From an uncultured Bacteroidales bacterium (lineage in GTDB: Bacteria; Bacteroidota; Bacteroidia; Bacteroidales; GCA-2748055), in the NCBI GenBank assembly GCA_963732905.1, contig CAVTBM010000011.1, forward strand, positions 12,686 through 76,685: DNA of 64,000 nt, read 5' to 3'. A program made the translations under genes and the position numbers. The notes under the pieces were generated by a model, which did not search any database, was not told the origin of the DNA, and was given only the letters and a program-made list of their open reading frames with translations. Below are positions 10,947 through 33,175 of this stretch, piece after piece (the stretch's first letter is position 1; each line of letters begins with the position of its first letter).

Positions 10947-11016
10947 CCTCCAACCTGATTCGCAAAATGCGATACCAGGATTAAAAAGTTATTCTCTGTA
11001 ATAAGAATTAAAGAAA

Positions 11017-12242: not shown

Positions 12243-12413
12243 GCCTGATACTTAACAGGGTTGACTTTGGGGCTTACCTAAGTGATTAAAAATGCAGTGG
12301 TCTGTTCAAATAATCCGGGAACAGTCTGGATTTTTTTCTCTTAATTGAAGTAATTGAAAACACAGAAAAATCTTCAGTTAAGGGCTCAATTAAAAGTCTT
12401 CATGCGCTAGAGC

Positions 12414-12444
12414 TTTGGCAGATATTAAAAAAATGCTAATTTTA
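12414..12444 (+). promoter_or_regulatory. Promoter-like box TTTG-N19-TAATTTTA (copy 2)
   Basis: TTTG at 12414-12417 and TAATTTTA at 12437-12444. Confidence 0.35.
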
Positions 12445-12465
12445 ATCTACGATAGTGTTCGTCCC

Positions 12466-12498
12466 AAACCTGACAGGTTTTAAAAACCTGTCAGGTTT
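12466..12498. promoter_or_regulatory. Perfect 15-bp hairpin (copy 2)
   Basis: Same sequence as 7578-7610. Confidence 0.85.
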
Positions 12499-12594
12499 AC
12501 GATGTACTGTTTGATGAAGGCATGATCAACATGAAAAACCAAACGCCTGAATTCGAGTATTTCTTAAAGAGACCATCCCGGTAATACAGGTGTT

Positions 12595-13509: not shown

Positions 13510-13516
13510 ATTGGTA

Positions 13517-14314
13517 ATGAAAAAAAATTCGTTAATTATTATATTTATTGTTATTGTAAGTAGTTGTCAATGTAATAAGAAAAAGGAATATTATTCTGAC
13601 GGATCGATTAAGATTGAGAAAATTTATTGTAAGAACAACGAACATATTAAAACGATCGAGCACTATCGAAATGGTCTCGTTTCATCGATTACATTTGAAA
13701 ATGTCAAAGGTAATTTAGATGGAAAATGTTCCTATTTTGATAAAAACGGTAATATCGAAAGTTCAGTTGTTTATAAAGATGGTATTTCAGATGGTATAGC
13801 AAAATGGTTTTATCCTAATGGCAAAATAATGGAAGAAGTGTATATAATAAATAAAGAAAGAGTTGGACCTCATATATATTATGATTTATCTGGAAATATA
13901 GTAAGAAAAAACTTTTATATTTTAATAAATAATAAATCATTCTTCAATGGGTATCTAGTTTATAATAAATTTGGAAATATTATTCCCGATTCGTCTATGT
14001 ATGTATTTTTAAAAACTGATAAGGACACAGTTAATATTAACGATACTATAACCTATTGGTTTAATCAATATCTATCAAAAGGGATTCAAGTTAAAGCCAT
14101 TATAGGTAATATTGATAAAAATTTCAATATCGTTGATTCAACCACAATTAAATATGTAAACCCAAATTTAAAAAACAAGTTTTCACCCACAAAAGTTGGA
14201 AATGATACAATTAGGATCATTTATGAATTGAAAAAAGAAACAGCAAATAATACTATTGATAAGATATATAAAGGCCGTATATTACTTGAAAAGATTTTAA
14301 ATGTTAGAGAGTAA
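13517..14314 (+). CDS. Immunity-like lipoprotein with MORN-variant (YwqK-like) repeats
   Basis: Lipobox MKKNSLIIIFIVIVSSC. Repeats YYSDGSIKIEKIY, YFDKNGNIESSVVYKDGISDGIAKWFYPNGKIMEEVY. The YwqK/COG2849 family is a known antitoxin/immunity family. The start is taken at ATG 13517, 8 nt after the tip stop. Confidence 0.65.
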   Translation: MKKNSLIIIFIVIVSSCQCNKKKEYYSDGSIKIEKIYCKNNEHIKTIEHYRNGLVSSITFENVKGNLDGKCSYFDKNGNIESSVVYKDGISDGIAKWFYPNGKIMEEVYIINKERVGPHIYYDLSGNIVRKNFYILINNKSFFNGYLVYNKFGNIIPDSSMYVFLKTDKDTVNINDTITYWFNQYLSKGIQVKAIIGNIDKNFNIVDSTTIKYVNPNLKNKFSPTKVGNDTIRIIYELKKETANNTIDKIYKGRILLEKILNVRE

Positions 14315-14829
14315 ACTGGTATGATTACGGGGCAAGGTTTTATGATCCGGCGATTGCAAGGTGGAATAAAAAAAGACAACAAGACATAAATGATGAATTG
14401 CGACTTCTTTCAATGGTACATAATAAAATAGTTAATAATAATACAGGGAATAATAATGATAAATATCCTGGATGGTCTGGATTAATAGGAATTTCGCTAG
14501 GCAGTCTCGATTTGTGGAATAATATGAAGGATAATTTATTGGCATCAAAATCAATCATAGAAAATCAAATTGAGGAGATTAATGAAAGATTAAAGAACAA
14601 GAATGCATCTTCTTCAGAGGTTGATAAATTACAAAACAATTTGAATGATTTGGTTAAGAAACAAGCTCAAATTGATTCGGTTATTGAAGCTGTCATAAGA
14701 GTTATTGATAATTCTAAAAAATATCAAGAACAATTAACTTCTCCAAGAGATGTCACAAGAACTAGTTCTTCTGGTGAAAATGATTATAAAAAAAGTCTTG
14801 ATATCGTTAAGAAATGGGGAAATGAATAA
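14308..14829 (+). pseudogene. Orphan Rhs tip fragment starting at [11 protein letters not shown], with no start codon of its own
   Basis: The frame opens at 14308, overlapping the stop of the preceding gene: (RVN)[31 protein letters not shown].... It then has an Asn-rich and coiled-coil-like tail (NQIEEINERLKNKNASSSEVDKLQNNLNDLVKKQAQ). The first ATG is at 14398. Confidence 0.65.
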
Positions 14830-14852
14830 AATTGAATTAATTATAGTTAGTT

Positions 14853-15245
14853 ATGAAGCAAGACTATGACGATATTCAGAATATTCTAACGGATTATTAC
14901 TTAAATGATGATTACATTAGTGTAATAAATACATGGGAATCTAAGATAAATTATAAATTATTACCTAAATTCGATAATAAATTACGAAATGAAGTACTTC
15001 ATGCGTTAATTATAAGTTATAAAAAAACCGAGAATATTAAACAGAGCATTTTTTATATAAATAAATATATTAATAAATTGTTAAATAATCATCAAAATGA
15101 AAACTTTGATGAAGAATTGCTTTTCTGTTTTACAGTTCTCGCATCAATATATGCATCTAAACAAAATTATCTAAAAGAATTAAAAACGCTATATAAATAT
15201 AATAAATTTAATAACAAAAATAAAAAAAACAAAAAACCTAATTGA
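14853..15245 (+). CDS. Immunity-like small cytoplasmic protein (helical, Lys/Asn-rich tail)
   Basis: 130-aa ORF 23 nt after the tip stop. Very AT-rich. No recognisable motif. Confidence 0.45.
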   Translation: MKQDYDDIQNILTDYYLNDDYISVINTWESKINYKLLPKFDNKLRNEVLHALIISYKKTENIKQSIFYINKYINKLLNNHQNENFDEELLFCFTVLASIYASKQNYLKELKTLYKYNKFNNKNKKNKKPN

Positions 15246-15261
15246 TGATTTAGAAGTACAT

Positions 15262-15492
15262 TTGTTTAATAAATTTCAGATGATGAACAAATTTTATTCT
15301 TACATATTTATTTCTTTGATAATTTTACATTTGATAATTGAAAATTTTTTTTCAATATCAATTAGTAATAAATTCTTTCTTGTGTTGTGGACAGCTTTTA
15401 TTATATTTTCTATGATATGGATTGTAATCACATTGCTAAATAAAAAACTTGCCTTAAAATTTTTTAGATTTCTTATCAGTGTTGTCCAGTAA
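15262..15492 (+). CDS. Small 2-TM membrane protein (possible second immunity gene)
   Basis: YSYIFISLIILHLIIENFF and FLVLWTAFIIFSMIWIVITLL are hydrophobic helices. The start is uncertain (listed TTG at 15262, ATG at 15280). Confidence 0.4.
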   Translation: MFNKFQMMNKFYSYIFISLIILHLIIENFFSISISNKFFLVLWTAFIIFSMIWIVITLLNKKLALKFFRFLISVVQ

Positions 15493-15605
15493 AACCGGAA
15501 GTTACTAATATTTTACAATCAAATGCCTGAAAATCAATCATACATTTTTCATTTTTCAAAAGCAAGCCCACCTCATTTCCGGGAATAAGGAATTTTCATA
15601 CTCAT

Positions 15606-15701
15606 TCGCTCGTTGTTTGTAAGCCTTCGGCTAACTGCATCTTGAAATAATACCTTCTACCAGTTAGCTTTGTTGCAAAGCAAGCCTTCGGCTAACGAGC
15701 G
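15606..15701 (+). other. Intergenic element: 15-bp direct repeat AAGCCTTCGGCTAAC x2 enclosed by an 8-bp stem
   Basis: Direct repeats at 15621-15635 and 15682-15696. CGCTCGTT (15607-15614) pairs with AACGAGCG (15694-15701). GCTAACTG (15630-15637) pairs with CAGTTAGC (15661-15668). Confidence 0.3.
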
Positions 15702-15868
15702 CCTTTGGTTTCATAGCGTAATGGATCCCTCAAAGAGAATAGCCAGTTCAGACTTTGGTTATTCTTACTCCCTCAATGTCAAGATGTTTTAGCTCCACGA
15801 TTATTGAGTGAAACAAATTTATTTCTAAAGATTTATCTTTACATTTGTAAAACAATGCTTGGAAGATC

Positions 15869-16096
15869 ATGAGGACAATACTGATAAAAATACCCGATAG
15901 TGTTGATATGTCAGACTATGACTTTTCAATGATGATTGCTGCAAAGCTTTATGAAGATAGAAAACTGTCTTCCGGTCAAGCTGCCGAAATGGTTGGTTTA
16001 ACCAAAAGAGCTTTCATAGAAATTCTCGGAAAATACGGAGTTTCGTTGTTCAGCAATTCAATTGATGATCTTCATTCAGATATAGCAAATGCCTAA
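15869..16096 (+). CDS. UPF0175-family antitoxin
   Basis: LSSGQAAEMVGLTKRAFIEILGKYGVSLF is the typical UPF0175 core. There is an 8-nt overlap with the downstream PIN-like gene. A perfect TAnnTTTG box (TACATTTG) sits at 15840-15847. Confidence 0.75.
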   Translation: MRTILIKIPDSVDMSDYDFSMMIAAKLYEDRKLSSGQAAEMVGLTKRAFIEILGKYGVSLFSNSIDDLHSDIANA

Positions 16097-16559
16097 GGTC
16101 ATTATTTCCGATACCAGTGTTCTGAATCTATTTCAAAAAATCAGCAGACTCGACCTGCTTCACGGAATTTATGAAGAGATCATTACAACGCCTGAAGTCG
16201 CAGAGGAATATGGGGACGAGTTACCTATATGGATAAATATTCAAGTAGTTACCGACAGAAAATATCAGGAACTATTGGAATTACAGGTTGACAAAGGTGA
16301 AGCCAGTGCCATCGCACTGGCTAAAGAATATTCAGATGTATTATTATTGCTCTATGATTTAAAGGCCAGGAAATTAGCTACTAAATTGAATTTGAAATAT
16401 ACCGGGACACTTGGTATTATAACGAAGGCAAAGAATAAAGGCTTAATTGAAAAGGTTAAACCTGTCCTGGATAAAATTCAAAAGACAGATTTCAGGATAT
16501 CAGAAAAGATACTTAAAGAGATTCTTTTACTGAATGACGAAGACGTGCAAGAGAGATAA
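16089..16559 (+). CDS. DUF3368-type PIN-like nuclease toxin
   Basis: VIISDTSVLNLF...GEASAIALAKEY...LLLLYDLKARKLATKLNLKYTGTLGIITKAKNKGLI matches the DUF3368 pattern. Note LLYD where LLDD would be typical. Confidence 0.7.
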   Translation: MPKVIISDTSVLNLFQKISRLDLLHGIYEEIITTPEVAEEYGDELPIWINIQVVTDRKYQELLELQVDKGEASAIALAKEYSDVLLLLYDLKARKLATKLNLKYTGTLGIITKAKNKGLIEKVKPVLDKIQKTDFRISEKILKEILLLNDEDVQER

Positions 16560-16622
16560 ATCACATTTGAGCAAGTTATACCTAGGATTGGTATCTGAAT
16601 TTCATCAAGTCTCAAAAAAAAT

Positions 16623-17081
16623 CATTGGTATGATTACGGGGCACGGTTCTATGAACCCCGGCTGGGTAGGTGGCATGTGATTGTTCCGGCCACTGAGGCC
16701 AATCACTTTGAATGGTAACGTTCATATGCCGGGCCTTAAACACATGAGCTCATCACACAAATTCGATTTTTTATTGTAAAAAACCTGAAATCCTCACGCT
16801 GATTTTTTCCTCTTTTTCCCATTAATTGGTGAAGCATTCCCGGACAGTTACTTCGTGTAGTTGCTTTCTGAAATTATAATAAACTGGTGCGAAATCTAGA
16901 ATGCAACCAGATTATGCGGCGGATATCCGGGCCGGGTCGATTTTTGATGGCCGAAGAATTACAATTCCGGAAGGTGCAGTATATGGCAGGTCATAAGTAC
17001 GTGAGTTCTACGGAACGGTAACAGCTGAATAACCTGGATAAGTTGCAGGAACGGATAAACAAATATCACCCGCTGAGTTAA
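16623..17081 (+). pseudogene. Rhs junction stub plus tyrosine recombinase 3' remnant, copy 2
   Basis: [31 protein letters not shown] (16623-16718), then ...KVQYMAGHKYVSSTER*QLNNLDKLQERINKYHPLS*. The catalytic Tyr codon is TAA. Near-identical to 19751-20222. Confidence 0.75.
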
Positions 17082-17131
17082 ACTAAAAGTGAATTTTAAT
17101 CGTTAAATTTGTGTACATAATGAGAGTAAAT

Positions 17132-17368
17132 ATGAATCTTCAGTCCAAAAAATTAGAGCTGGTTCAGCTTATACTGAATACTAAAAAACCCTCTATCCTT
17201 GCCAGGGTTGAAGCTGTACTAAAAGGGAAAGCTGTCGATTGGTGGGATGAGATAAGCCCGGAGGAACGGGAAGCCATAGAAAAGGGCTTATCAGAGGCAG
17301 ATAAAGGAGAGCTTATACCTCATGAAGAAGTCATGAAAGAAGTAAGGGCAAAATATAAGCTCGACTAA
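17132..17368 (+). CDS. Antitoxin partner of the RelE/ParE-family toxin
   Basis: Small acidic protein (WWDEISPEEREAIEKGLSEADKGELIPHEEVMKEV). TAATG overlap with the toxin gene. The start could also be 17111 or 17120. Confidence 0.6.
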   Translation: MNLQSKKLELVQLILNTKKPSILARVEAVLKGKAVDWWDEISPEEREAIEKGLSEADKGELIPHEEVMKEVRAKYKLD

Positions 17369-17664
17369 TGAAGATTAGTTGGACTCCCACAGCAAGAAGG
17401 ACTTATTTTAAAGTTCTCGATTATTTAGCGGAGAACTGGACCAAAAGAGAAGTTGCCCATTTTATAAGCGAAGTTGAAAGCTTATTGAATCAGATCACCA
17501 ACAATCCTGAAATGTTCCAGGCCTCCAGAAAAAAGAAAAGCGTCAGAAAGGCTCTAATCACGAAACACAACGCGCTTTATTACAGGATAAAACCCAGAAA
17601 AAAAGAACTAGAGCTAATCACCTTCTGGGATAATCGCCAAAACCCCAATAAATTAACTTATTAG
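17368..17664 (+). CDS. RelE/ParE-family type II toxin
   Basis: 98 aa. WTPTARRTYFKVLDYL...ALYYRIKPRKKELELITFWDNRQNP is a typical ParE/RelE fold signature. Confidence 0.7.
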   Translation: MKISWTPTARRTYFKVLDYLAENWTKREVAHFISEVESLLNQITNNPEMFQASRKKKSVRKALITKHNALYYRIKPRKKELELITFWDNRQNPNKLTY

Positions 17665-17694
17665 TTATCCACCCTCCCCGCCTCCAACCCTTCT

Positions 17695-17770
17695 GCAGCT
17701 GTTTTTGTCATGCCTTTTGCCGTTGCCGATTGCACCGCGTATGGCAAAAGCCACGCCAAAAAACTGCTGC
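17695..17770. repeat. Long imperfect palindrome (cassette-end element)
   Basis: GCAGCTGTTTTTGTCATGCCTTTTGCC (17695-17721) against GGCAAAAGCCACGCCAAAAAACTGCTGC (17743-17770). About 80% complementary, with a 21-nt loop. Confidence 0.7.
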
Positions 17771-17997
17771 CCCAGGCAACGGTACATAATGTGTCGGTAT
17801 TTGAAACCCTCCACCAGAAACGGGATCTTCCTTCCAACCGGAATTTTTTCTTTTAACTGAACGGCGAAGCCCTCATAGCATACACTGTTTTGACTTGTAG
17901 CACCTCTAAAAAATCAATTAATAGGTAAATAACAAACTGAAAACTCGGAAAAATCTTCAGCTAAAGGGCTCAATTAAAAGTCTTCGTTTGCTAAAGC

Positions 17998-18028
17998 TTT
18001 GGCAGATATTAAAAAAATGCTAATTTTA
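17998..18028 (+). promoter_or_regulatory. Promoter-like box TTTG-N19-TAATTTTA (copy 3)
   Basis: TTTG at 17998-18001 and TAATTTTA at 18021-18028. Confidence 0.35.
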
Positions 18029-18047
18029 ATCTACGATCGTTCGTCCC

Positions 18048-18080
18048 AAACCTGACAGGTTTTAAAAACCTGTCAGGTTT
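18048..18080. promoter_or_regulatory. Perfect 15-bp hairpin (copy 3)
   Basis: Same sequence as 7578-7610. Confidence 0.85.
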
Positions 18081-18103
18081 ACGATGTACTGTTTGATGGA
18101 GGC

Positions 18104-19003
18104 ATGATCAACATGAAAAACCAAACGCCTGAATACGAGTATTTCTTAAAGGACCATCCCGGTAATACACGTGTTGTGCTGAATACAGAAGCACAATTTG
18201 TAGAACAACACGATTATTACCCGTTTGGTATGGAGTTCGCCGGACGACAGGGTGGAGATATCAAGTATCGGTATAACGGAAAGGAAATGCAGGATATGAA
18301 AATCGGGGGGAGAGGGTTGGATTGGTACGATTACGGATTTAGATTTTACGACCCGGCTTTAGGTCGGTTCCCAAGCCTGGATCCAAAAGCAGATGAGTTT
18401 GAAAATCTCTCTCCATACAACTATGCCAGTAACAATCCGGTAACATGTATTGATCTATGGGGAATACAAGGCCGGCCAGTAAATAAAGTTCGAGATCAGA
18501 AGGGAAATATTACAGCTGCTACAACCAGTGCTCAACAGTCAACGTATATTTCTACAATGGAGCCAAAAACTATTAGTAATAACTCAATTGAATTTAAACC
18601 GACAAATGAGTCTATATATCAGAGTGCAAATTGGTGGGAACTTACAACTGCTCCAGATATACAAGAATGGTTAAAAGTTGACAAAGTTCCATCGGCTGTA
18701 GCTGTAGGAGGACTTATAACTGTTCTAAGCGCAGCTGTTCCAGAAGTCATTTCAGGTATAACAGATTTCGGTTCTAATGTCACTTTAAATATTTCTACAT
18801 CAATTGAATCTTCAACAACAATTGCAGTCGGAACTGGTGTGGTAGTGGGTGCTGCTAAAACATTAACTGATGCCCCACCTGATACGCCTGAAATACCTAA
18901 CCCGGTAATAGAGGTTTCTTCAGAAATGACTGAATATATTATTCAATCTACACACGAGTTTATGAAAAATATTCAAAATTCAAATGATAAAAAGTCTAAA
19001 TAG
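18104..19003 (+). CDS. Orphan Rhs/YD C-terminal tip 3 (intact ORF) with a Gly/Ala/Val-rich hydrophobic C-terminal domain
   Basis: MINMKNQTPEYEYFLKDHPGNTRVVLN...YYPFGMEF...GLDWYDYGFRFYDPALGRFPSLDPKADEFENLSPYNYASNNPVTCIDLWGIQG. The tail contains VPSAVAVGGLITVLSAAVPEVISG and TTIAVGTGVVVGAAKTL. Confidence 0.8.
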   Translation: MINMKNQTPEYEYFLKDHPGNTRVVLNTEAQFVEQHDYYPFGMEFAGRQGGDIKYRYNGKEMQDMKIGGRGLDWYDYGFRFYDPALGRFPSLDPKADEFENLSPYNYASNNPVTCIDLWGIQGRPVNKVRDQKGNITAATTSAQQSTYISTMEPKTISNNSIEFKPTNESIYQSANWWELTTAPDIQEWLKVDKVPSAVAVGGLITVLSAAVPEVISGITDFGSNVTLNISTSIESSTTIAVGTGVVVGAAKTLTDAPPDTPEIPNPVIEVSSEMTEYIIQSTHEFMKNIQNSNDKKSK

Positions 19004-19047
19004 AGTTAGAAATAAATTTGTATTTTTAATTCATCAACTCATAATTT

Positions 19048-19269
19048 ATGTGTTTTTTGGATAAAAAAAGGCTTAAATATATCTATTTTTATTTTATGAT
19101 TCTTTGTTTTCAAATTATATTGGTGAGAATATTTGGTGAACCTGATTTATTAAAAACACCAAGCTCATCACAAACTTGGGGAGAAAGTATTAATGATTTT
19201 CCAATATATATGATAACATCGTTATTCTTAACGTTAATATTCTATTTTTTTGATCGCTTCTCTAAATAA
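19048..19269 (+). CDS. Immunity-like 2-TM membrane protein
   Basis: YIYFYFMILCFQIILVRIF and FPIYMITSLFLTLIFYFF helices. AT-rich. 44 nt after the tip 3 stop. Confidence 0.5.
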   Translation: MCFLDKKRLKYIYFYFMILCFQIILVRIFGEPDLLKTPSSSQTWGESINDFPIYMITSLFLTLIFYFFDRFSK

Positions 19270-19284
19270 TAATTACAATGCAAT

Positions 19285-19728
19285 ATGACAAACTTTAGGA
19301 ATATTCGAAATTTAAATATTGTATTTTCATTTATTCTTATAGTTATGTATTTTCGTTCATTACGATATTTAATAATGATTATAACTCATTATAATGTATT
19401 TTTTAAGAGAAGTTACTTTCAAATATTGTTCCTTTCACCTAGATTAGTTGTGTTTATTAATACTTTTAATATAATTATTGGAGTATGTATATTAATAAAT
19501 GCTTTTGCTCTATTAAATAAAATGCAAAAAAGTATAATATTTATTAAAATATTACTTCCAATAAGTGCTATACTAAATTTACCATTTTTCTATAAAAATA
19601 TAATAGACTATGAGGATAATTTACATAAATATGTTAGCCTTGGAATTACAATGTTGATTTATATAATTTATTTAACCACATATCTTTTTTACAATAGTCG
19701 TAAAATCAAGCTTTTATTTACGAATTAA
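19285..19728 (+). CDS. Immunity-like polytopic membrane protein (about 4 TM)
   Basis: Four hydrophobic segments, e.g. NIVFSFILIVMYF, VVFINTFNIIIGVCILINAFALL, VSLGITMLIYIIYLTTYLF. AT-rich. Confidence 0.5.
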   Translation: MTNFRNIRNLNIVFSFILIVMYFRSLRYLIMIITHYNVFFKRSYFQILFLSPRLVVFINTFNIIIGVCILINAFALLNKMQKSIIFIKILLPISAILNLPFFYKNIIDYEDNLHKYVSLGITMLIYIIYLTTYLFYNSRKIKLLFTN

Positions 19729-19750
19729 CATATAATACAAAAAGGATGTA

Positions 19751-20222
19751 AACTGGTACGATTACGGGGCACGGTTCTATGATCCACGCCTAGGTAGGTG
19801 GCATGTTATTGTTCCGGCCACTGAGGCCAATCACTTTGAATGATATCGTTCATATGCCAGGCCTTAAACACATGAGCTCATCACAAAAATTCGATTCTAT
19901 ATTGTAAAAACCTGAATTCCTCACGCTGATTTTTTGCTCTTTTTCCCATTAATTGGTGAAGCATTCCCGGACAGTTACTTCGTAGTTGCTTTCTAAAGTT
20001 ATAATAAACTAGTGCGAAATCTTGAATGCACCCTGATTGTGCGGCAGATATCCGGGCCGGGTCGATTACTGATAGCCGAAGAATTACAATCTCCGGCAGG
20101 TTCAATATATGGGAGGGCATAAGTATGTGAGTTCTACGGAGCGGTATCAGCTCAATAACCTGGGTAAGGTACAGAGCAAATTGGAGAAATATCATCCATT
20201 GTCACATAATAGTCGCAAATAA
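19751..20222 (+). pseudogene. Rhs junction stub plus tyrosine recombinase 3' remnant, copy 3
   Basis: [30 protein letters not shown] (to 19843), then ...KNYNLRQVQYMGGHKYVSSTERYQLNNLGKVQSKLEKYHPLSHNSRK* ending at TAA 20220-20222. The frame is closed upstream by TAG in ACTGATAGCCGAAG. Confidence 0.75.
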
Positions 20223-22997: not shown

Positions 22998-24854
22998 ATG
23001 ATGCATATTAAGAAACAACAGCTGATCCCGGTTTTCGTTCTGATCTCATTGACTGTTTCTGCACAGCAGTGGAAACCGGTTGGCGATAAAATGATGACCC
23101 GCTGGTCCGCACAGGTCAATCCCCAAAATGCCTGGCAGGAATACCCACGTCCCCAGATGGAAAGAGCCGACTGGCTAAATCTTAACGGATTATGGGATTA
23201 CGCCGTCCAGCCAGGTAACATGCCGGCGCCAAAAAAATTCCAGGGGAAGATCCTGGTACCGTTCTGCATTGAATCAGCCCTTTCCGGAGTGGGAATATCT
23301 TTTATGCCGGGTGAGCGGCTCTGGTATAAAAGAGAATTCAGCCTTCCGGCAGGCTGGGCATCAAAAAAGATCATCCTTCACTTTGAAGCCGTCGACTGGT
23401 CAGCCATGGTTTGGGTGAACGGCGCTTTTGCCGGTTCCCATAAAGGATGTTACGATGCTTTCTCATTTGACATTACACCCTATTACAAACCGGGACAGAA
23501 ACAGGTAATTCTTGTTGCTGTCGACGATCCGACCAGTGACGGAAGTCAGCCCAGAGGAAAACAACTCCTCCATCCGAACAGTATCTGGTATTCCCCGGTG
23601 AGCGGGATATGGCAAACCGTGTGGATGGAAGCCGTCCCGAAGGAAACTTTTATCGAAGATCTGGATATCGTTTCCGATCCCGGGAAATCCATCGTGACAA
23701 TCCTTCCATTATTACATCAGCCACATAACTTTGATTACAAGGTACTGATCAGGGTCCTGGCCGGAAATTCTGAAATCGTTTCAGATACCGTACCGGGTGA
23801 TCATACCGCCGAACTGAAAATTGATCACCCTGAACTTTGGTCGCCCGGCCATCCTTTCCTGTATGATCTGGATCTTCAGCTGATCAATCCTGAAGGGCAG
23901 ATTATTGACAGGGTGAAGAGCTATTTCGGGATGAGAAAGATCAGTATGGGTGACTATGACGGCAACATGGTGCTGTTACTGAACGACAAACCTTTATTTC
24001 AATACGGCCCGCTCGACCAGGGATGGTGGCCCGACGGCCTGTATACCCCACCTGATGAAGAGGCCATGAAGTATGATCTTCAGATGACGAAAAACATGGG
24101 ATTCAATATGATCCGTAAACATGTCAAGGTTGAAAATAAACGCTGGTATTACTGGTGTGATAAGATGGGCATCCTGGTTTGGCAGGATATGCCTTCGGGG
24201 ATGGTTGTCATGGATGTTGAAAACAAGGATCGTCCCCTTGAAGTTGAACGGGTCAGGCCCGGAGGAGAGGATCTCAACAGGGCACCCACAGAAACCACAC
24301 AGTTTGAAACCGAGCTCAGGCGGATGATCCTTCAGCACCGGAATTCACCGGCCATCGTCGTCTGGGTCCCGTTCAACGAAGGCTGGGGCCAGTATGCCAC
24401 CTGCCGGATTACAGGCATGATAAAAGCGCTGGATCCCACCCGACTTGTCGATCCTGCCAGTGGTTGGGAACGGCACGTCTGCGGAGATCTTTATGATATT
24501 CACACTTACGGCACCACGGTGGACATTCCTCCATTATGCACCGACCGGGCCTCGGTTATAGGCGAATACGGAGGGATAGGTTTTCCCGTCGAAGGGCACT
24601 TGTATAATCCGGATATGAAACACTGGGGCTACCAGACCTACCCTTCCCCGGAAGAATTGCTGGAACATTACAAAGCAAAATTTGAACAGATCGTGGAAAT
24701 GAAGAAAACGAAAGGGCTTTCCGCTGCCGTTTACACGCAGACTACCGACGTGGAAGGGGAAATAAACGGGCTGATGACCTATGACCGGGCAGTGGTCAAG
24801 ATGCCGGCCGATACGTTGATGCGGCTTCATTCGGTGCTGTATTTGGGGAAGTGA
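22998..24854 (+). CDS. Secreted glycoside hydrolase family 2-like enzyme
   Basis: Signal peptide. Sugar-binding-like N-terminus (WQEYPRPQMERADWLNLNGLWDY), TIM-barrel motifs NMIRKHVKVENKRWYYWCDKMGILVWQDMP and WVPFNEGWGQ. Confidence 0.7.
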   Translation: MMHIKKQQLIPVFVLISLTVSAQQWKPVGDKMMTRWSAQVNPQNAWQEYPRPQMERADWLNLNGLWDYAVQPGNMPAPKKFQGKILVPFCIESALSGVGISFMPGERLWYKREFSLPAGWASKKIILHFEAVDWSAMVWVNGAFAGSHKGCYDAFSFDITPYYKPGQKQVILVAVDDPTSDGSQPRGKQLLHPNSIWYSPVSGIWQTVWMEAVPKETFIEDLDIVSDPGKSIVTILPLLHQPHNFDYKVLIRVLAGNSEIVSDTVPGDHTAELKIDHPELWSPGHPFLYDLDLQLINPEGQIIDRVKSYFGMRKISMGDYDGNMVLLLNDKPLFQYGPLDQGWWPDGLYTPPDEEAMKYDLQMTKNMGFNMIRKHVKVENKRWYYWCDKMGILVWQDMPSGMVVMDVENKDRPLEVERVRPGGEDLNRAPTETTQFETELRRMILQHRNSPAIVVWVPFNEGWGQYATCRITGMIKALDPTRLVDPASGWERHVCGDLYDIHTYGTTVDIPPLCTDRASVIGEYGGIGFPVEGHLYNPDMKHWGYQTYPSPEELLEHYKAKFEQIVEMKKTKGLSAAVYTQTTDVEGEINGLMTYDRAVVKMPADTLMRLHSVLYLGK

Positions 24855-25000
24855 GGAGGTGAGGAAGTTATGAGGTTATGAGGTTATGAGGTTATGAGGT
24901 TATGAGGTTATGAGGTTATGAGGTTATGAGGTTATGAGGTTATGAGGTTATGAGGTTATGAGGTTATGAGGTATATGAAGTTATGAGGTTATGAAGTTGG
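24851..25000. repeat. 8-bp microsatellite (GAGGTTAT)n, 12 perfect units plus degenerate flanks
   Basis: Perfect units span 24872-24967. Degenerate units (GAGGAGGT, GAGGAAGTTAT, GAGGTATAT, GAAGTTAT, GAAGTTGG) lie on both sides. The repeat begins at the GH2 stop codon (TGA 24852-24854). Confidence 0.95.
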
Positions 25001-25039
25001 AAGACAGGAAAGAAGGAAACCGGAAAACCGAACGTAGAT

Positions 25040-25212
25040 GTGATGCTTCACGTCTCTTCGGAAAAACGAAACCGGAATATCCATTGAGAACTAGAGACGT
25101 GATGCTTCACGTCTCTTCGGAAAAACAAAACCGGTATATCCATTGAAAACCGGAACGTAGATGACGTGATGCTTCACGTCTCTTCGGAAAAACGAAACCG
25201 GAATATCCATTG
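25040..25212. repeat. Three tandem ~47-nt repeats, each with hairpin AGACGTGA-TGCT-TCACGTCT
   Basis: GTGATGCTTCACGTCTCTTCGGAAAAACGAAACCGGAATATCCATTG at 25040-25086, 25099-25145 and 25166-25212. The spacers are 12 and 20 nt. Confidence 0.9.
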
Positions 25213-25362
25213 GAAACCCGGACCGTATAAGGAAAAAAATGGTTCAAATGCCATGGAGTGATGATTTCCCTATACAAAAAACGCCTGAAATATTATTGCA
25301 GTAAGGGAAAAAATTGCATCAGGTTTCAGACTTTCATCAAAAAGCATATCATTATTTTGGGT

Positions 25363-25500
25363 GAGTTGATAACTTTTCGTCAAAAAGGTGAATCAGGGGC
25401 GCTGAGATTTTGGGGATGTTTGCTATTAAGGCCGGACGGTTGGACGGCGGGGGTGGGATCCCTGTTCAATTAAAGACCTCTTAAGATAAACGAAACCCCG
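25363..25500 (+). repeat. Conserved ~137-nt intergenic element, copy 1 (candidate structured RNA)
   Basis: GTTGATAACTTTTCGTCAAAAAGGTGAATCAGGGGCGCTGAGATTTTGGGGATGTTTGCTATTAAGGCCGGACGGTTGGACGGCGGGGGTGGGATCCCTGTTCAAT... aligns over its full length with 32630-32768. Confidence 0.6.
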
Positions 25501-25896
25501 GACTCTGCCCGGACTTTAAATGATTCCGGGCGAAAGCGGAGAAAATATCGCTGAAGGTTAAGAGTCTGATAGCTTAATAGCATTGGAGAACAGGACAATC
25601 ATCCTAACTGTTGGATCAGAAATTAATATCTTTGTGCTGTGGACACCTCCCGATAATAAGAGCCGGAGTAACACCGGTTTTTAAATGGTTATTATCCGAA
25701 GGTGAACCCCGAAGTTTTCAGGCAAAAGAGCCGAAGCTTCTGACTGATATGAATGATGATGTCCCGAAGGTCTGATTAAAAACGGTCGCCCGCGCAGGGT
25801 ACCTGTTGTCTTTCATGCAGGGATGGACTGACCAATGAAGAATCACATCTTTGTGACAGCCTCGAATGAGAGGTAGAATGACAGAAAGTTTAAAAG

Positions 25897-26562
25897 ATGA
25901 CACAGACGAAAAATGCCGGACAAAACCTTCAACGTGTTGTTTTGCCGGAACCCGTTGCCGGTAATGAAACATCGGTGATGCGAGCCTTACAATTGAGGAA
26001 AACTACCCGTGAGATCAGCGACAAAAAACTGCCGTTGCAAATCCTTTCAAATCTGCTTTGGGCAGCTTACGGGGTGAACCGCCAGACCGGCCCGTTTGGT
26101 ATCCAGGGCAGAACAGCGGCCAGCGCCAGTAATTCTCAGGAAATTGATATTTACGTGGCCCTGGAGGAAGGGATCTATCTCTATGAAGCTAAACCCCACC
26201 AACTCTCCCCGGTTTTGAAAGGTGATTTCCGTTCGCTTGCCATCGGTGCCGGACAGTCCGGTTTTGGTGCAACGGCTCCCGTACAGTTCATCTATGTGGC
26301 CGACGTATACCGACTCACACATACATCCGGATTCCAGGAACCTGGCCTGCAGGATCCGGAGGTTCAGAAATCCTATTTTTTTGCCGATACCGGGCTTATC
26401 GCAGGTAACGTCTATCTTTATGCCGCTTCTGCCGGACTTGCCGCCTGGTTTCATAACTGCAACAAACCAAAACTCATGGAAATGCTAAACCTTCGGGCGG
26501 ATCAACGGGTGTTGTTCGGACAGACGGTCGGATATCCTGAACACCCCGGGCCTATCTCTTGA
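25897..26562 (+). CDS. Nitroreductase-fold (SagB-type-like) protein
   Basis: LSNLLWAAYGVNR...SASNSQEIDIYVALEEGIYLY...FADTGLIAGNVYLYAASAGLAAW fits the nitroreductase/SagB-like fold. Confidence 0.6.
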   Translation: MTQTKNAGQNLQRVVLPEPVAGNETSVMRALQLRKTTREISDKKLPLQILSNLLWAAYGVNRQTGPFGIQGRTAASASNSQEIDIYVALEEGIYLYEAKPHQLSPVLKGDFRSLAIGAGQSGFGATAPVQFIYVADVYRLTHTSGFQEPGLQDPEVQKSYFFADTGLIAGNVYLYAASAGLAAWFHNCNKPKLMEMLNLRADQRVLFGQTVGYPEHPGPIS

Positions 26563-26711
26563 ATTAACACCCTTACTTTTTTCCGAAAGAAATTGGTCTG
26601 AATTTTAGCCGGCTTCTATGATAATTTATAGGAAATATCTATATATTTGCTTCGTGGTGTTACTATATTATATATTGGTAACACGAAATATTCCAGCCGT
26701 TATCTTGTACC

Positions 26712-29093
26712 ATGGGAAAATCTATTTTTGTTCTCCTGATTTCAGCCTGGTCTCTCTCCTCCCTCGCAAACAATTCCGGCAATCTGACCGGAACCGTCAC
26801 GGATACCAAAACCGGTGATCCGGTGATTGGTGCCAACATATATTTCAAGGGAACCATTATTGGCACCATCAGCGACATCAAAGGAAAGTATGAACTTAAA
26901 AATCTTAAGACCGGACCTTACGATGTTGTGTGTTCAGATATCGGCTATACATCGATTCAGCAGACCATCCTGGTAAGGGAAAATGATACCACCGTGGTGA
27001 ATTTTGCCCTTCAGGAAACCACAACCAACCTGCAGGCCGTTACTATTGCAGGTTCACTCCCCATGTCGGCAGCATCTTCCATGGAGATCAGGAAAATAGA
27101 TATGCAGCTCCGGCCTTTCAGAACAACACAGGATATGCTGAGGCTGGTACCCGGACTGGTCATAGCACAGCATGCCGGCGGAGGCAAGGCCGAACAGATC
27201 TTTCTCAGGGGCTTTGATTGTGATCATGGCACGGATGTTTCGGTGAATGTTGACGGAATTCCGGTTAATATGGTTTCACATGCTCATGGTCAGGGCTATG
27301 CCGACCTGCACTATGTCATCTCCGAAACGGTCGGCAACATTGATGTTAACAAGGGACCGTATTTCACAAGGTTTGGTGATTTTGCCACTGCAGGAGCAAT
27401 ATCTTTCACCACCAAAGACGTTTTGGATAACAACCTGGTCAAGCTGGAAGCCGGTCAGTTTAATACCCAAAAATACACTCTGCTTTGCCAACTTGATAAT
27501 GGTGGCGCTGAGCAGAACGGTTACATCGCTGCCCAGTATTACCATACCGACGGTCCTTTTGACAATCCACAAAAATTGCAAAGGATGAATCTCTTCGGAA
27601 AATATTTCATCCGGTTAACGCAAAACTCCAGGCTGGCTTTCTCCGTGGGGGGATATTCTTCGGCCTGGAATGCCTCTGGACAAATCCCGACCCGTGCGGT
27701 GGAAGAGGGTCTCATCAACCGTTTTGGCAATCTGGACAATACCGAAGGCGGCGCTACCGATAGGGAGAATATCAATCTTGACTATAAATTCAGAAGTGAA
27801 TCGGGAAATGAGCTTGACATTCGGACCTACGCCACTAACTATAATTTTAAATTATTCTCGGATTTTACCTTTTTCCTAACCGACAGTATCAACGGCGACA
27901 TGATCGAACAAACTGAGCATCGGAATATGTCCGGTGTCAATGCTACATATAGTTTTTCATCCAAATTTCAGAACATTCACATCATCAACCGGATTGGGAG
28001 TGGATACCGGGGTGATAACATCAGTCCGCAGCTCTGGCACAGCCCTAACCGCAACCGGATGAATGAGCTTACCAGCGACCTGATTCACCAGCATAACTTT
28101 TACGTTTGGGGTGAGCAGGAAATGGCTCTCAGTCCGAAGGTGAAAATGATCTGGGGCCTCAGGCATGACTTTTTCACTTTTATTAAAGACGATCAGGTAG
28201 GTAATGCACTGGACACAACAAACAACGGGCTTCCCCATGCATCCGGTTATGCCTGGCAGTCGGTCTTCAGCCCAAAGCTCAATTTCATTATTCAACCTAT
28301 GCGCAACCTGGATATTTACCTTAATTTTGGCCAGGGCTTTCATTCAAATGATGCCAGGGATGTGGTGATTGGAGAAAAAGTTAATGAACTGACATCACTC
28401 TGGAAACGGGAAGGACTTTCTGATCAGCAGGTAAACAGTAACCTGGCGAAATTTAATTTTGATCCCCGGCAGCGCAGTACGGGCACTCTTCCAAAAGCCA
28501 CCGGAAGTGAGATAGGGATACGCACAACCTTAGTCCATAGGCTTCACCTGGGACTGGCAGCCTGGTATCTGTACCTTCAGAAAGAAATTGTATATGCAGG
28601 TGACGGGGGCACTACAGAGATCAGCAATCCGACACAGCGTAAAGGCATTGATGCGGAAGCCAGATACGCGTTAGCCTCCTGGCTCTGGCTCGACGGAGAT
28701 CTGAGTGCATCGAAGGGCAGGATCCTGAATGTTCCTGCTGATGATAGTCATATTCCACTCGCGCCTACACTAACAGCCTCTGGAGGAATAAGTGTGATCC
28801 GGCAAAAAGGGTTGAATGCTTCGCTCCGAGTCCTTCATATCGGTGACCGCCCCGCCAATGAGCAGAATACACTAACCGCTCAAGGATATACCCTTTTTAA
28901 TGTAAACATTTTTTATAAACTGGGGAAGATCACCTTCTCGGTTTACGGAGAGAATTTAATGAATGCCGACTGGAACGAGGCACAGTTCGCCACGGAAACC
29001 CGACTAAAAGGTGAAACCGAAGGAAAAACGGATATATGCTTCACACCTGGCAACCCCAGGAATTTTCAGTTCAGCGTGGCATTTGAATTCTGA
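26712..29093 (+). CDS. TonB-dependent outer-membrane receptor with an N-terminal CarboxypepD_reg domain
   Basis: Signal peptide. GTVTDTKTGDPVIGANIYFKGT, plug region (IFLRGFDCDHGTD), long beta-barrel and a terminal aromatic residue (...FQFSVAFEF). Confidence 0.85.
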   Translation: MGKSIFVLLISAWSLSSLANNSGNLTGTVTDTKTGDPVIGANIYFKGTIIGTISDIKGKYELKNLKTGPYDVVCSDIGYTSIQQTILVRENDTTVVNFALQETTTNLQAVTIAGSLPMSAASSMEIRKIDMQLRPFRTTQDMLRLVPGLVIAQHAGGGKAEQIFLRGFDCDHGTDVSVNVDGIPVNMVSHAHGQGYADLHYVISETVGNIDVNKGPYFTRFGDFATAGAISFTTKDVLDNNLVKLEAGQFNTQKYTLLCQLDNGGAEQNGYIAAQYYHTDGPFDNPQKLQRMNLFGKYFIRLTQNSRLAFSVGGYSSAWNASGQIPTRAVEEGLINRFGNLDNTEGGATDRENINLDYKFRSESGNELDIRTYATNYNFKLFSDFTFFLTDSINGDMIEQTEHRNMSGVNATYSFSSKFQNIHIINRIGSGYRGDNISPQLWHSPNRNRMNELTSDLIHQHNFYVWGEQEMALSPKVKMIWGLRHDFFTFIKDDQVGNALDTTNNGLPHASGYAWQSVFSPKLNFIIQPMRNLDIYLNFGQGFHSNDARDVVIGEKVNELTSLWKREGLSDQQVNSNLAKFNFDPRQRSTGTLPKATGSEIGIRTTLVHRLHLGLAAWYLYLQKEIVYAGDGGTTEISNPTQRKGIDAEARYALASWLWLDGDLSASKGRILNVPADDSHIPLAPTLTASGGISVIRQKGLNASLRVLHIGDRPANEQNTLTAQGYTLFNVNIFYKLGKITFSVYGENLMNADWNEAQFATETRLKGETEGKTDICFTPGNPRNFQFSVAFEF

Positions 29094-29384
29094 GTAAAAT
29101 CAACCTTGTCTCTCAGAATCACCACAAATCGTATTTCCTTGTCCCATCACAGATTAAGACCTGGGCCCAACCAATGGGCTAAAACTCTGGTTTCATAAGA
29201 GGAATCAATGCACTCCCGTGGCTAAAACGGGTTTTATGGAATTTATTATGAACCCCGAATAATCTGGAGTGAAACTGTCAATGGCCATGATTAAATTAAA
29301 AGGAAGCTCCAAATTGGACGAGAGGCCAGATCAATTATTTCATGCAACATAAATTTTTCCTCTGTCTGAACAGACAAATTAACA

Positions 29385-32489: not shown

Positions 32490-32629
32490 AAAGGATAGAG
32501 AATCAGTGAAAATTTCTTATGCCACTCAGAACTATCCTGCACCTGTAATTCCACTGAAATTTTATTGCAGTCAGCCCATTTTTTTCAGAAGAATCTAGTC
32601 ATTCATAAAAATGGCCCTCAACTTTTAGA

Positions 32630-32768
32630 GTAGTTGATAACTTTTAATCAAAAAGGTTAAAACGGGACGCTGAGATTTGGGGGGTGTTTCCCATTAAGGG
32701 CGGACGGTTGGAAGGTGGGGGTGGGATACCCTATTCAATCTAAGACTTCTTAAAAATAACGAAGCCCC
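32630..32768 (+). repeat. Conserved ~137-nt intergenic element, copy 2
   Basis: Roughly 85% identical by eye to 25363-25500, in the same orientation. It lies between convergent genes. Confidence 0.6.
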
Positions 32769-32882
32769 TTATTGCGTCCTTCCGGCAAATTCTCCTGATT
32801 TAAGATCCTGCTTATGGGAGATGTAACAAGGTGATGGCGGCTGTCTAAAAAGATCTTTAAATAAGGATTCAAGTTACAAAGT

Positions 32883-32930
32883 ATAACCGCCCTTCATCCG
32901 CCTGAGGCGGACGAAGGGCGGTTATATTTT
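32883..32930 (+). terminator. Strong rho-independent terminator-like hairpin (20-bp stem, 3-nt loop, T-run)
   Basis: ATAACCGCCCTTCATCCGCC-TGA-GGCGGACGAAGGGCGGTTAT followed by ATTTT. 19 of 20 positions pair. Confidence 0.75.
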
Positions 32931-33175
32931 GAAAGCAACCTGTTGACGGCCGCAACTTTCCGGACAGCCTCTTAGAATTCCTGAACCCATTGCTGTGACT
33001 TCCTCTCAGGACTTATTTTCCGAAAGGCATTACCCATGCATTGAGTATGGTCAACCCGGAAGGTTCGCCTTTCAAATTCAGGAAGAAATGATGATGAACC
33101 AGAGCCGGACTTCCTGGCGCCAGGAGATCAGGATTCCTGTCTCCGGTCCTCTCAGTCGTTCCTCCACATCCCCTG

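What the first reader, a model, noticed from the sequence alone, without database searches (positions are those of the whole stretch)
25363..25500. ~137-nt intergenic element present twice (25.4 and 32.7 kb) with hairpin-preserving substitutions
25363-25500 and 32630-32768 align end to end in the same orientation, at roughly 85% identity by eye. They bracket the block of nitroreductase-like gene, TonB receptor and PKD adhesin.

The differences are patterned in two places.
- The stem CTTTT/AAAAG keeps both arms and varies only in the loop (CGTCA vs AATCA).
- TTT-GCT-ATTAA-GGC-CGG vs TTT-CCC-ATTAA-GGG-CGG changes both arms together (G:C to C:G, U:G to C:G).

The second copy has stop codons in the frame of the ORF listed over the first copy, so the element is not coding. 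Copy 2 lies between convergent genes, so it cannot be a 5' leader there. I could not match it to any riboswitch or RNA class I know.
Basis: seen in the sequence. Interest (0 to 1): 0.55.

Follow-up and report, generated by a model that had tools for sequence, protein, structure and literature searches.

The report
Genus-specific multicopy non-coding intergenic element
The two look-alike stretches are real copies of a roughly 260-base non-coding element found several times per genome in a small group of uncultured Bacteroidales; it is under selection and is most likely a family of small regulatory RNA genes, but the hairpin "covariation" that drew attention to it does not hold up.

Summary
The repeat is real. 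Window 25363-25500 and 32630-32768 align colinearly at 82% identity. Homology extends to about 260 nt: 25270-25533 and 32542-32798.

I found 17 further hits in loci from related uncultured Bacteroidales, including re-assemblies of the same sites and one degenerate relic assembled twice. Nine count as independent of the window's two copies.

- **Layout.** An 18-nt palindromic box carries a Bacteroidota -7 promoter-like motif (TAnnTTTG). A poorly conserved ~65-nt spacer follows, then a 140-nt G-rich core of near-invariant blocks.
- **Not coding.** One-base indels occur in 5 of the first 10 copies, and the start codon is not kept.
- **Not a known family.** It matches no Rfam family, and no plasmid or phage record.
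- **Not tied to one gene.** Neighbours and relative orientations differ at every locus.
- **Under constraint.** The core stays 77-90% identical between species whose conserved genes differ by about 18% at the DNA level.
- **Gained or lost.** It is absent from an orthologous site in three related species.
Its outer pair forms in only 5 of 12 copies. Another hairpin (TTGGAN/N'TTCAA around an invariant G-tract) has a single covarying pair.

Best reading: a family of paralogous small RNA genes (confidence 0.4). Main rival: a recombination-spread DNA repeat. Interest is modest.

The parts
25270..25533 (+). Copy 1, full unit (~264 nt)
   Evidence: nhmmer profile match, E 2e-73; alignments.
32542..32798 (+). 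Copy 2, full unit (~257 nt)
   Evidence: nhmmer profile match, E 5e-71; alignments.
25285..25302 (+). Copy 1, 5' palindromic box CTGAAATATTATTGCAGT, containing the -7-like motif TATTATTG (25291-25298)
   Evidence: Mean pairwise identity is 83% across copies, with flanks at 34-43%. The consensus TATTTTTG fits TAnnTTTG; the motif is cited from PMC7366714.
32554..32571 (+). Copy 2, 5' palindromic box CTGAAATTTTATTGCAGT
   Evidence: Same alignment columns as in copy 1.
25364..25387 (+). Copy 1, core block A: AGTTGATAACTTTTCGTCAAAAAG. Possible hairpins TTGAT/GTCAA or CTTTT/AAAAG.
   Evidence: 93% mean identity. The arms are invariant, with no covariation.
32632..32655 (+). Copy 2, core block A
   Evidence: Same alignment columns.
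25400..25408 (+). Copy 1, core block B: CGCTGAGAT
   Evidence: 98% mean identity. It is also kept in the degenerate L033 copy.
32668..32676 (+). Copy 2, core block B
   Evidence: Same alignment columns.
25409..25424 (+). Copy 1, variable patch: TTTGGGGATGTTTGCT
   Evidence: Nine substitutions fall in these 16 nt against the sister strain L023, whose state matches the other species' copies. This points to gene conversion between paralogues.
25425..25469 (+). Copy 1, core block C: ATTAAGG..GGACGG, hairpin arms TTGGAC (25440-25445) and GTTCAA (25464-25469), and G-tract GGCGGGGGTGGG (25446-25457)
   Evidence: 85% mean identity. The hairpins are 95.5% paired, with one covarying pair. A two-layer G-quadruplex is predicted in all 12 copies.
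32693..32738 (+). Copy 2, core block C: arms TTGGAA (32708-32713) and ATTCAA (32733-32738), G-tract 32714-32725
   Evidence: Same alignment columns. In this copy the closing pair is an A-A mismatch.
25470..25533 (+). Copy 1, block D and decaying tail
   Evidence: Identity falls from 70% to 54%, then to background.
32739..32798 (+). Copy 2, block D and decaying tail
   Evidence: Same alignment columns.
32874..32934 (.). Strong GC-rich inverted repeat followed by a T run, about 80 nt after copy 2. It may end a transcript from copy 2 and from the flanking convergent genes.
   Evidence: Inverted repeat I1: 30-nt arms, 90% complementary.
25657..25683 (+). Terminator-like hairpin plus T run, about 125 nt after copy 1
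   Evidence: Terminator scan.

Best explanation
The element is one locus type of a family of paralogous, independently transcribed small non-coding RNA genes ("sibling sRNAs"). The family is specific to a genus-level clade of uncultured Bacteroidales.

**Proposed working (inferred)**
- Transcription starts a few bases after the -7-like TAnnTTTG motif. That motif sits inside the conserved 18-nt palindromic box, which probably doubles as an operator for a shared regulator.
- The first ~65 nt of the RNA differ between subfamilies.
- The conserved 140-nt G-rich core is the functional part. It could be a protein-binding or base-pairing platform.
- The core centres on a hairpin, UUGGAN/N'UUCAA, that encloses the invariant tract GGNGGGGGUGGG.

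**What is shown and what is inferred**
- Shown: multicopy distribution, mosaic conservation, non-coding nature, independence from neighbouring genes, constraint across species, gain or loss at orthologous sites, and gene conversion between copies.
- Inferred: transcription, the functional strand, the promoter, and any target or partner.
For: - **Copy number.** Nineteen profile hits across the loci fetched, including re-assemblies of the same sites. All are intergenic.
- **Neighbours.** Flanking genes are unrelated: GH2, nitroreductase, PKD, esterase, GH9, FtsX/ABC, LptFG, carboxyltransferase, GNAT, epimerase and radical SAM. Co-directional, divergent and convergent arrangements all occur, so it behaves as an independent unit.
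- **Mosaic conservation.** The profile is typical of a functional non-coding gene: 5' box 83%, spacer 43%, block A 93%, block B 98%, block C 85%, flanks 23-34%.
- **5' box.** It reads TATTTTTG or TATATTTG (a perfect TAnnTTTG) in 5 copies and lies at a fixed distance from the core. The motif is cited from PMC7366714.
- **Constraint across species.** The carboxyltransferase genes of the species involved are only 80-85% identical in DNA. Element cores are 77-90% identical between species, while the adjoining intergenic DNA cannot be aligned.
- **Constraint within a species.** Outside one converted patch, the element is 1.5-2.5% diverged against about 5-6% for its flanks.
- **Older than speciation.** Two subfamilies, defined by the 5' part, are shared by both genomes.
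- **Functional strand.** The G-U pair in the TTGGA/TTCAA stem favours the G-rich strand, and one pair covaries (CG 4, AU 3, GC 1).
- **Arrangement.** Tandem pairs (L002, 657 nt apart; L004, 409 nt apart) occur alongside dispersed copies, as in known sibling sRNAs.
- **Precedent.** Multicopy sRNA families driven by canonical sigma-ABfr promoters exist in Bacteroides: FopS, 14 members (PMC11697453).
Against: - There are no transcript data.
- No conserved intrinsic terminator follows the core. Distances to the nearest terminator-like hairpin vary, and some copies run straight into tandem arrays.
- Folding energy is no better than shuffles.
- Only one covarying pair was found, and 4 of 12 copies do not pair there.
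- The -33 TTTG motif is absent. The -7 motif is imperfect in 6 copies and missing in L004b.
- At 150-230 nt, a weakly structured RNA is unusual for a bacterial sRNA.
Confidence: 0.4

Rival explanations
1. A dispersed DNA repeat with no dedicated RNA product, comparable to REP, ERIC or BOX elements. It would spread and be homogenised by recombination and gene conversion as part of repeat-rich intergenic islands. Its G-tract sequences might also promote local tandem duplication.
For: - The element sits beside heptamer or octamer runs, or larger tandem arrays, at most loci: window 24832-25227, L002 3381-3678, L003 2664-4166, L005 1205-2128.
- The whole 2.3-kb island between LptFG and carboxyltransferase is present in one species and absent in three others.
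- Array copy number differs between strains.
- A converted patch and the differing 5' and core trees show gene conversion.
- RNA structure support is weak.
Against: - Block-wise conservation well above neutral expectation between species needs selection, or very recent transfer.
- Copy number is low: at least 7 in one MAG, and 2 in the 64-kb window.
- The element is not palindromic, and I found no terminal inverted repeats at the ends I compared.
- Copies are old and diverged, not a recent burst.
Confidence: 0.3
2. A DNA-level regulatory module. The palindromic box and block A (TTGAT-N8-GTCAA) would be protein-binding sites. The G-tract strand would form G-quadruplex DNA that affects transcription or replication of adjacent regions.
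For: - Conservation is of sequence, not of structure.
- The 5' box and block A are palindromic.
- The G tracts are invariant, while substitutions and both 1-nt insertions fall between them.
- A G-quadruplex is predicted in all 12 copies.
Against: - At five of the eight loci examined (w2, L001, L003, L004, L005) the next gene downstream is convergent, so the element cannot be a promoter module for it.
- 140 nt is long for an operator.
- ViennaRNA over-rewards two-layer quadruplexes, so any GGNGGNGGNGG would score. One search is therefore only a motif statement.
Confidence: 0.15
3. A non-autonomous mobile element (MITE-like, or IS200/IS605-derived) or a relic of one.
For: It is multicopy and intergenic. 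It shows presence/absence at an orthologous site and has a hairpin-like box near its 5' end.
Against: - It has no terminal inverted repeats, and its 3' edge decays gradually instead of ending sharply.
- The filled site differs from the empty one by a 2.3-kb composite island, not by the 260-nt unit, and no target duplication is visible.
- No transposase lies beside any copy.
- There is no match in plasmids, phages or viral contigs.
- There are no near-identical copies apart from local tandem duplicates.
Confidence: 0.08
4. A small protein gene: about 20 aa on the + strand (M-x-x-I-K-G-G-R-L-E-G-G-G-G-I-P...) or about 29 aa on the - strand.
For: Variable positions in GGN GGN GGN fall mostly at every third base. 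ATG or GTG sits at the right place in 8 of the first 10 copies.
Against: - One-base indels occur inside the ORF in 5 of the first 10 copies, while the nucleotides after them stay conserved.
- The start is CTG in L004a/b and GCG in L009.
- On the - strand, few nucleotide changes give radical amino-acid changes.
- There is no Pfam match.
- The three-base periodicity is explained by invariant GG doublets.
Confidence: 0.03

Closest known systems
FopS / GibS paralogous sRNA family of Bacteroides (PMC11697453)
   Same: Both are multicopy sRNA-type loci in Bacteroidota. They are mostly intergenic, carry a sigma-ABfr-type -7 promoter, are dispersed around the genome, and are conserved within a narrow clade.
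   Different: - FopS RNAs are about 65-70 nt, with a conserved 5' seed and a terminator hairpin.
- This element is at least 150-230 nt, its conserved part is 3' of a variable part, and it has no conserved terminator.
- No sequence relationship to FopS was found or expected.
- Transcription of this element is unproven.
Sibling sRNAs in general (Qrr1-5, LhrC1-5, OmrA/B, PrrF1/2); from my own knowledge
   Same: Several diverged copies per genome, some in tandem, with a shared conserved core and copy-specific parts.
   Different: Those RNAs have defined terminators, and usually Hfq- or ProQ-type modules and known regulators. None of these features is visible here.
Bacterial intergenic repeat families (REP/BIME, ERIC, BOX, Correia/NEMIS MITEs); from my own knowledge
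   Same: Dispersed, intergenic and modular, with mosaic copies shaped by recombination.
   Different: Those families are palindromic or bounded by inverted repeats, fold stably, and usually reach tens to hundreds of copies. This element is asymmetric (G-rich on one strand), does not fold better than shuffles, and has few copies.
Short tandem heptamer repeats of some Bacteroidetes, Cyanobacteria and Beggiatoaceae (PMC4679880)
   Same: The islands that hold the element contain runs such as (TTAGGGA)n, (TTAGAGA)n and (GAGGTTAT)n.
   Different: Those are simple tandem repeats. The element is a unique 260-nt sequence that merely neighbours them.

Membership tests
Any Rfam 15 RNA family (riboswitches, ribozymes, known Bacteroidetes motifs, HEARO/IS605 RNAs, 6S and others) | Covariance-model match at or near the family's gathering score | tested here: not met
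   No hit at gathering score in the window. At E up to 10, nothing overlaps the core in the window copies, L005 or L009, apart from far sub-threshold chance hits.
Trans-acting sRNA gene family (sibling sRNAs) | Own promoter at a fixed distance upstream | tested here: inconclusive
   The conserved box holds TAnnTTTG: perfect in 5 copies, 5 of 6 specified bases in 3, 4 of 6 in 3, and absent in L004b. There is no -33 TTTG.
Trans-acting sRNA gene family (sibling sRNAs) | Intrinsic terminator at a conserved 3' end | tested here: not met
   No conserved hairpin plus U run follows the core. The nearest terminator-like sites lie about 80-125 nt away in the window, and are absent or variable elsewhere.
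Trans-acting sRNA gene family (sibling sRNAs) | A discrete transcript | not testable with these tools
   No expression data are available.
Trans-acting sRNA gene family (sibling sRNAs) | Independence from the flanking genes, plus conservation above the neutral level | tested here: met
   Neighbours are unrelated and all orientations occur. The core is 77-90% identical between species whose carboxyltransferase genes are 80-85% identical, and the flanks cannot be aligned.
Structured cis-regulatory RNA (riboswitch or leader) | Constant position upstream of a functionally coherent gene set | tested here: not met
   At five of the eight loci examined the downstream gene is convergent, and the neighbouring genes are unrelated.
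Structured cis-regulatory RNA (riboswitch or leader) | Conserved secondary structure with covariation | tested here: not met
MITE or other non-autonomous transposon | Terminal inverted repeats, or matching subterminal hairpins | tested here: not met
   The ends of the aligned unit are not complementary, and the 3' edge decays gradually.
MITE or other non-autonomous transposon | Target-site duplication and a precise filled versus empty site | tested here: inconclusive
   Only one filled/empty comparison was possible. It differs by a 2.3-kb composite island with no visible duplication.
REP/ERIC/BOX-type palindromic repeats | An imperfect palindrome that folds stably | tested here: not met
   Fold energies equal those of shuffles on both strands.
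DGR template/variable repeat pair | Differences confined to adenines of one copy | tested here: not met
   The 32 substitutions between the two window copies are of all types. Neither copy lies inside a gene.
Small protein gene | Reading frame and start codon kept across copies | tested here: not met
   Frame-breaking 1-nt indels occur in 5 of the first 10 copies, and the start varies (ATG, GTG, CTG, GCG).

The most novel reading that the evidence does not exclude
The conserved core is a hairpin-capped G-quadruplex module, acting as RNA or as single-stranded DNA. Its G tracts are what selection keeps. The module either serves as the scaffold of an undescribed ribonucleoprotein or seeds the unstable tandem-array islands found next to it. 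Either would make it a new kind of bacterial genome-structuring or regulatory element.
Probability: 0.1. Interest if true: 0.6.

Novelty: new member of a known kind. Interest (0 to 1): 0.35.

Why it matters
If the element is transcribed, it would add a second multicopy sRNA family to Bacteroidota, and the first from environmental, uncultured Bacteroidales. Its architecture would be unusual: a variable 5' part, a long G-rich conserved 3' core, and a promoter inside a palindromic box. It would also come with a ready-made set of natural variants for finding its partner.

If it is not transcribed, it marks a type of repeat-rich intergenic island that is gained, lost and resized between close relatives. 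That bears on the assembly and annotation of these genomes.

Either way, the result warns against reading covariation from only two copies.

Tried and rejected
- **Rfam.** Gathering and permissive scans of the window copies, L005 and L009 gave nothing.
- **tRNA and tmRNA scan.** None found.
- **D16 repeat.** The G-rich core resembles the reverse complement of repeat D16 (12090-12146 and 17650-17706), but the alignment shows no real homology.
- **Small ORF, either strand.** Rejected because of indels, variable start codons and radical amino-acid changes. No Pfam match.
- **Searches for spurious ORFs over other copies.** The six-frame chimeric protein query found nothing, probably because low-complexity candidates swamped it. 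The 71-aa ORF searched against 1.8 billion representatives found one further copy, P0241, which could not be located in a contig.
- **Metagenome scan with the block A pattern.** It returned 15 loci, but only L009 is a true copy; the others are chance matches to an AT-rich pattern.
- **Viral contigs, plasmids and phages.** No copies.
- **60-nt tandem unit upstream of copy 1 as a truncated 3' end of the element.** Not significant, p about 0.035 against shuffles.
- **All-against-all column covariation.** Swamped by single-sequence changes. The helix-level scan found no helix of 5 or more pairs with more than one covarying pair.
- **Complement of the G tract near gene starts in the window.** Nothing convincing.
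- **Loci with nitroreductase homologues at 74-78% identity (L025, L026).** Not syntenic and without the element.

Full report
**Observation**

The two stretches exist as described. Window 25363-25500 and 32630-32768 align colinearly in the same orientation, with one 1-nt indel. Identity is 115/140 = 82%.

A 26-nt core pattern occurs exactly twice in the window and never in 100 shuffles. It runs upstream to a conserved box, CTGAAATWTTATTGCAGT (25285-25302 and 32554-32571), and about 30 nt downstream. The repeated unit is therefore about 260 nt: 25270-25533 and 32542-32798.

- GH2 lies before copy 1.
- Nitroreductase, a TonB-dependent receptor and a PKD/CHU_C protein lie between the copies.
- An esterase lies convergent after copy 2.

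**More copies**

One exact-pattern scan of 185,579 species genomes found six more copies. All are in one MAG, uncultured Bacteroidales MFD02923.bin.1.92. A profile search of those loci added a seventh.

A metagenome scan with a different block found one true, more divergent copy, L009. Its other 14 hits were chance matches.

A 97%-identical nitroreductase led to the same species as the window (L023, about 95% DNA identity). Both copies are present there.

Following the carboxyltransferase next to copy L003 gave two results:
- L030 and L031 carry the same copy in further assemblies of that species.
- L033 and L034, from another species, carry a degenerate copy at the same site and in the same orientation. 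It keeps only GCTGAGATTTG, CATTAAGGGTGG and GGGGGGTGGGATCCCC.

A sensitive profile search of 266 kb from this clade found no others. Nothing was found in viral contigs, plasmids or phages.

**Anatomy**

Mean pairwise identity across nine independent copies is strongly block-wise:

| Segment | Identity |
|---|---|
| Upstream flank | 34% |
| 5' box | 83% |
| Spacer | 43% |
| Semi-conserved stretch containing TTCATCAAAA | 70% |
| Block A, AGTTGATAACTTTTCGTCAAAAA | 93% |
| Variable purine-rich linker | 61% |
| Block B, CGCTGAGAT | 98% |
| Variable patch | 70% |
| Block C, ATTAAGGGCGGACGGTTGGAAGGCGGGGGTGGGAT-CCC..TTCAA | 85% |
| Block D | 70% |
| Tail | 54% |
| Downstream | 23% |

The 5' box is an imperfect palindrome, ACTG-N11-CAGT. 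Its centre reads TATTTTTG or TATATTTG in five copies. That is a perfect match to the Bacteroidota sigma-ABfr -7 consensus TAnnTTTG (PMC7366714). No -33 TTTG is present.

The core is G-rich on the strand shown. In block C the G doublets and runs never change across 12 copies. Most substitutions, and both 1-nt insertions (L002b and L009), fall between them.

**Coding?**

No. Variation in the GGN GGN GGN stretch looks like third-position wobble, but several things rule out a gene:
- Five of the first ten copies carry 1-nt indels inside any candidate ORF, while the nucleotides after the indel stay conserved.
- The start is ATG, GTG, CTG or GCG, depending on the copy.
- The opposite-strand ORF shows radical amino-acid changes for few nucleotide changes.
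- No translation matches Pfam.

**RNA structure**

- Minimum free energies equal those of dinucleotide shuffles on both strands (z from -0.04 to 0.8).
- RNAalifold gives -13.9 kcal/mol with a covariation term of -0.01.
Most copies read GTC..GGG. Its outer pair forms in 5 of 12 copies, and the two reader hairpins together are matched by 263 of 500 shuffles.
- The CTTTT/AAAAG arms are simply invariant.
- A helix-level scan found no helix with more than one covarying pair.
- The best candidate is TTGAT/GTCAA plus TTGGAN/N'TTCAA. It is 95.5% paired and 0 of 500 shuffles reach it. Its closing pair is CG in 4 copies, AU in 3, GC in 1 and unpaired in 4. Given how related the copies are, this is suggestive only.
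- With quadruplex energies switched on, ViennaRNA places a two-layer G-quadruplex in GGNGGGGGTGG inside that hairpin in all 12 copies. The energy model rewards any such motif, so this is a statement about the motif, not evidence of folding.

**Context**

Neighbouring genes are unrelated, and every relative orientation occurs. A leader, a 3' UTR element or a gene-specific operator is therefore excluded.

The element often lies in long repeat-rich intergenic islands:
- In the window, a (GAGGTTAT)n run and three 60-67-nt units lie just upstream of copy 1.
- In the MAG, arrays of 105-, 113- and 203-224-nt units, rich in TTAGGGA-like heptamers, start within 0-100 nt of the 3' end of three copies.
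- Two loci hold tandem pairs of the element itself.

**Evolution**

- **Divergence between species.** The carboxyltransferase genes of five species of the clade are 80-85% identical in DNA, in a star-like pattern. Neutral DNA between them should therefore be saturated. The DNA flanking the elements indeed cannot be aligned.
- **Constraint on the core.** Element cores are nevertheless 77-90% identical between species. Two subfamilies, defined by the 5' part, occur in both genomes. This argues for purifying selection on the blocks; the alternative is recent transfer.
- **Within a species.** Outside one patch, the element is 1.5-2.5% diverged against roughly 5-6% for its flanks.
- **The converted patch.** In copy 1, 9 substitutions fall within 16 nt: TTTTGGGGATGTTTGCT in the window against TCCGGGGGCTGAAAGTC in L023. 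The L023 state is the one seen in the other species. In addition, L002b has a 5' part 95-96% identical to L001 and L002a but a core only 75-79% identical to them. Both facts point to gene conversion between paralogues.
- **Gain and loss.** The 2.3-kb island between LptFG and carboxyltransferase is present in the MAG species. It is reduced to a degenerate relic in L033/L034. It is absent in L028 (the window's species), L032 and L029, where the spacer is only 135-256 nt. No terminal inverted repeats or target duplication mark its edges.

**Interpretation**

The features fit best a family of independently transcribed paralogous small RNA genes:
- a conserved promoter-like box at a fixed distance from the core;
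- a variable 5' part and a constrained core;
- independence from neighbouring genes;
- tandem and dispersed copies;
- subfamilies older than speciation.

Multicopy sRNA families driven by canonical promoters are known in Bacteroides (FopS, PMC11697453).

The weak points are the lack of any transcript data, of a conserved terminator and of real structural support. I therefore give this reading 0.4.

The rivals:
- **Recombination-spread DNA repeat, tied to unstable array islands (0.3).** This is the main rival.
- **DNA-level protein-binding or G-quadruplex module (0.15).**
- **Relic mobile element (0.08).**
- **Small ORF (0.03).**

**Novelty**

The element is absent from Rfam 15 and from the annotated collections searched. 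On present evidence it is a new, narrowly distributed member of known kinds: sibling sRNAs or intergenic repeat families. Interest is modest (0.35).

**Limits**

The genome and metagenome collections could each be scanned only once, and only with exact patterns. Copy numbers and taxonomic range are therefore lower bounds.

Noticed in passing
window 24832-24990: About 20 tandem copies of the octamer GAGGTTAT (with GAGGTGAG variants). The run begins inside the last codons of the GH2 gene, whose stop is at 24852-24854. Similar G-rich heptamer or octamer runs, such as TTAGGGA, TTAGAGA and TAGAGAG, lie near most copies of the element in the related MAG.
   Followed up: partly
window 25023-25227; L023 8577-9330: Three tandem units of 59-67 nt, each starting with the hairpin GACGTGATGCTTCACGTC, lie just upstream of copy 1. 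The sister strain has about ten units, so copy number varies between strains that are about 95% identical.
   Followed up: partly
window 26541-29303 versus L023 10645-10805: The TonB-dependent receptor gene between the two copies (ORF 26712-29093) is missing in the sister strain. About 2.76 kb is replaced there by about 160 nt. The deletion end points are not in the element copies.
   Followed up: partly
window 7366-20200: Three to five repeated cassettes, spaced about 5-6 kb apart, share 300-nt blocks (70-92% identical). They also share a 51-nt near-perfect palindrome, CCAAACCTGACAGGTTTTAAAAACCTGTCAGGTTT, at 7569-7619, 12457-12507 and 18039-18089. A conserved coding junction (TGGTAYGATTAYGGGGC.., that is [11 protein letters not shown]) recurs five times. 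This looks like an array of polymorphic-toxin (RHS-type) C-terminal cassettes, but Pfam did not confirm it.
   Followed up: partly
window 10415-10597; L003 7240-7422; L004 2988-3222: A second short dispersed repeat, 86-94% identical, is shared between the window genome and the MAG. It is unrelated to the element studied.
   Followed up: no
window 32874-32934: A 30-bp-arm GC-rich inverted repeat (90% complementary) followed by a T run lies between the convergent PKD and esterase genes. It is probably a bidirectional terminator, and it gave the weak sub-threshold Rfam hits (ohsC, tsr31).
   Followed up: partly
L003 2664-4166; L005 1205-2128; L002 3381-3678; L030 and L031: Large tandem arrays (units of 203-224, 105 and 113 nt, 93-96% matches) start right after the element's 3' end in the MAG. 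L003 and L005 share the palindromic segment TTTCCCCTTWAGGGGACTAAGGGG. The number of units differs between assemblies of the same species.
   Followed up: partly
L033 5058-5161 (- strand) and L034 5060-5163: A degenerate relative of the element lies at the orthologous LptFG-carboxyltransferase spacer of another species. It lacks block A and the TTGGA hairpin but keeps GCTGAGATTTG, CATTAAGGGTGG and GGGGGGTGGGATCCCC. These may be the minimal conserved motifs of the family.
   Followed up: partly
L003 about 4660-4720; L028 about 9900-9960; L029; L032: The carboxyltransferase promoter region is conserved across four species: ATATCCTTTGTTAAATTG..GGGATTTAGTAAYGTTGTA. It has TTTG, then 19 nt, then TAATGTTG. 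This shows that the clade uses Bacteroidota-type -33/-7 promoters.
   Followed up: no
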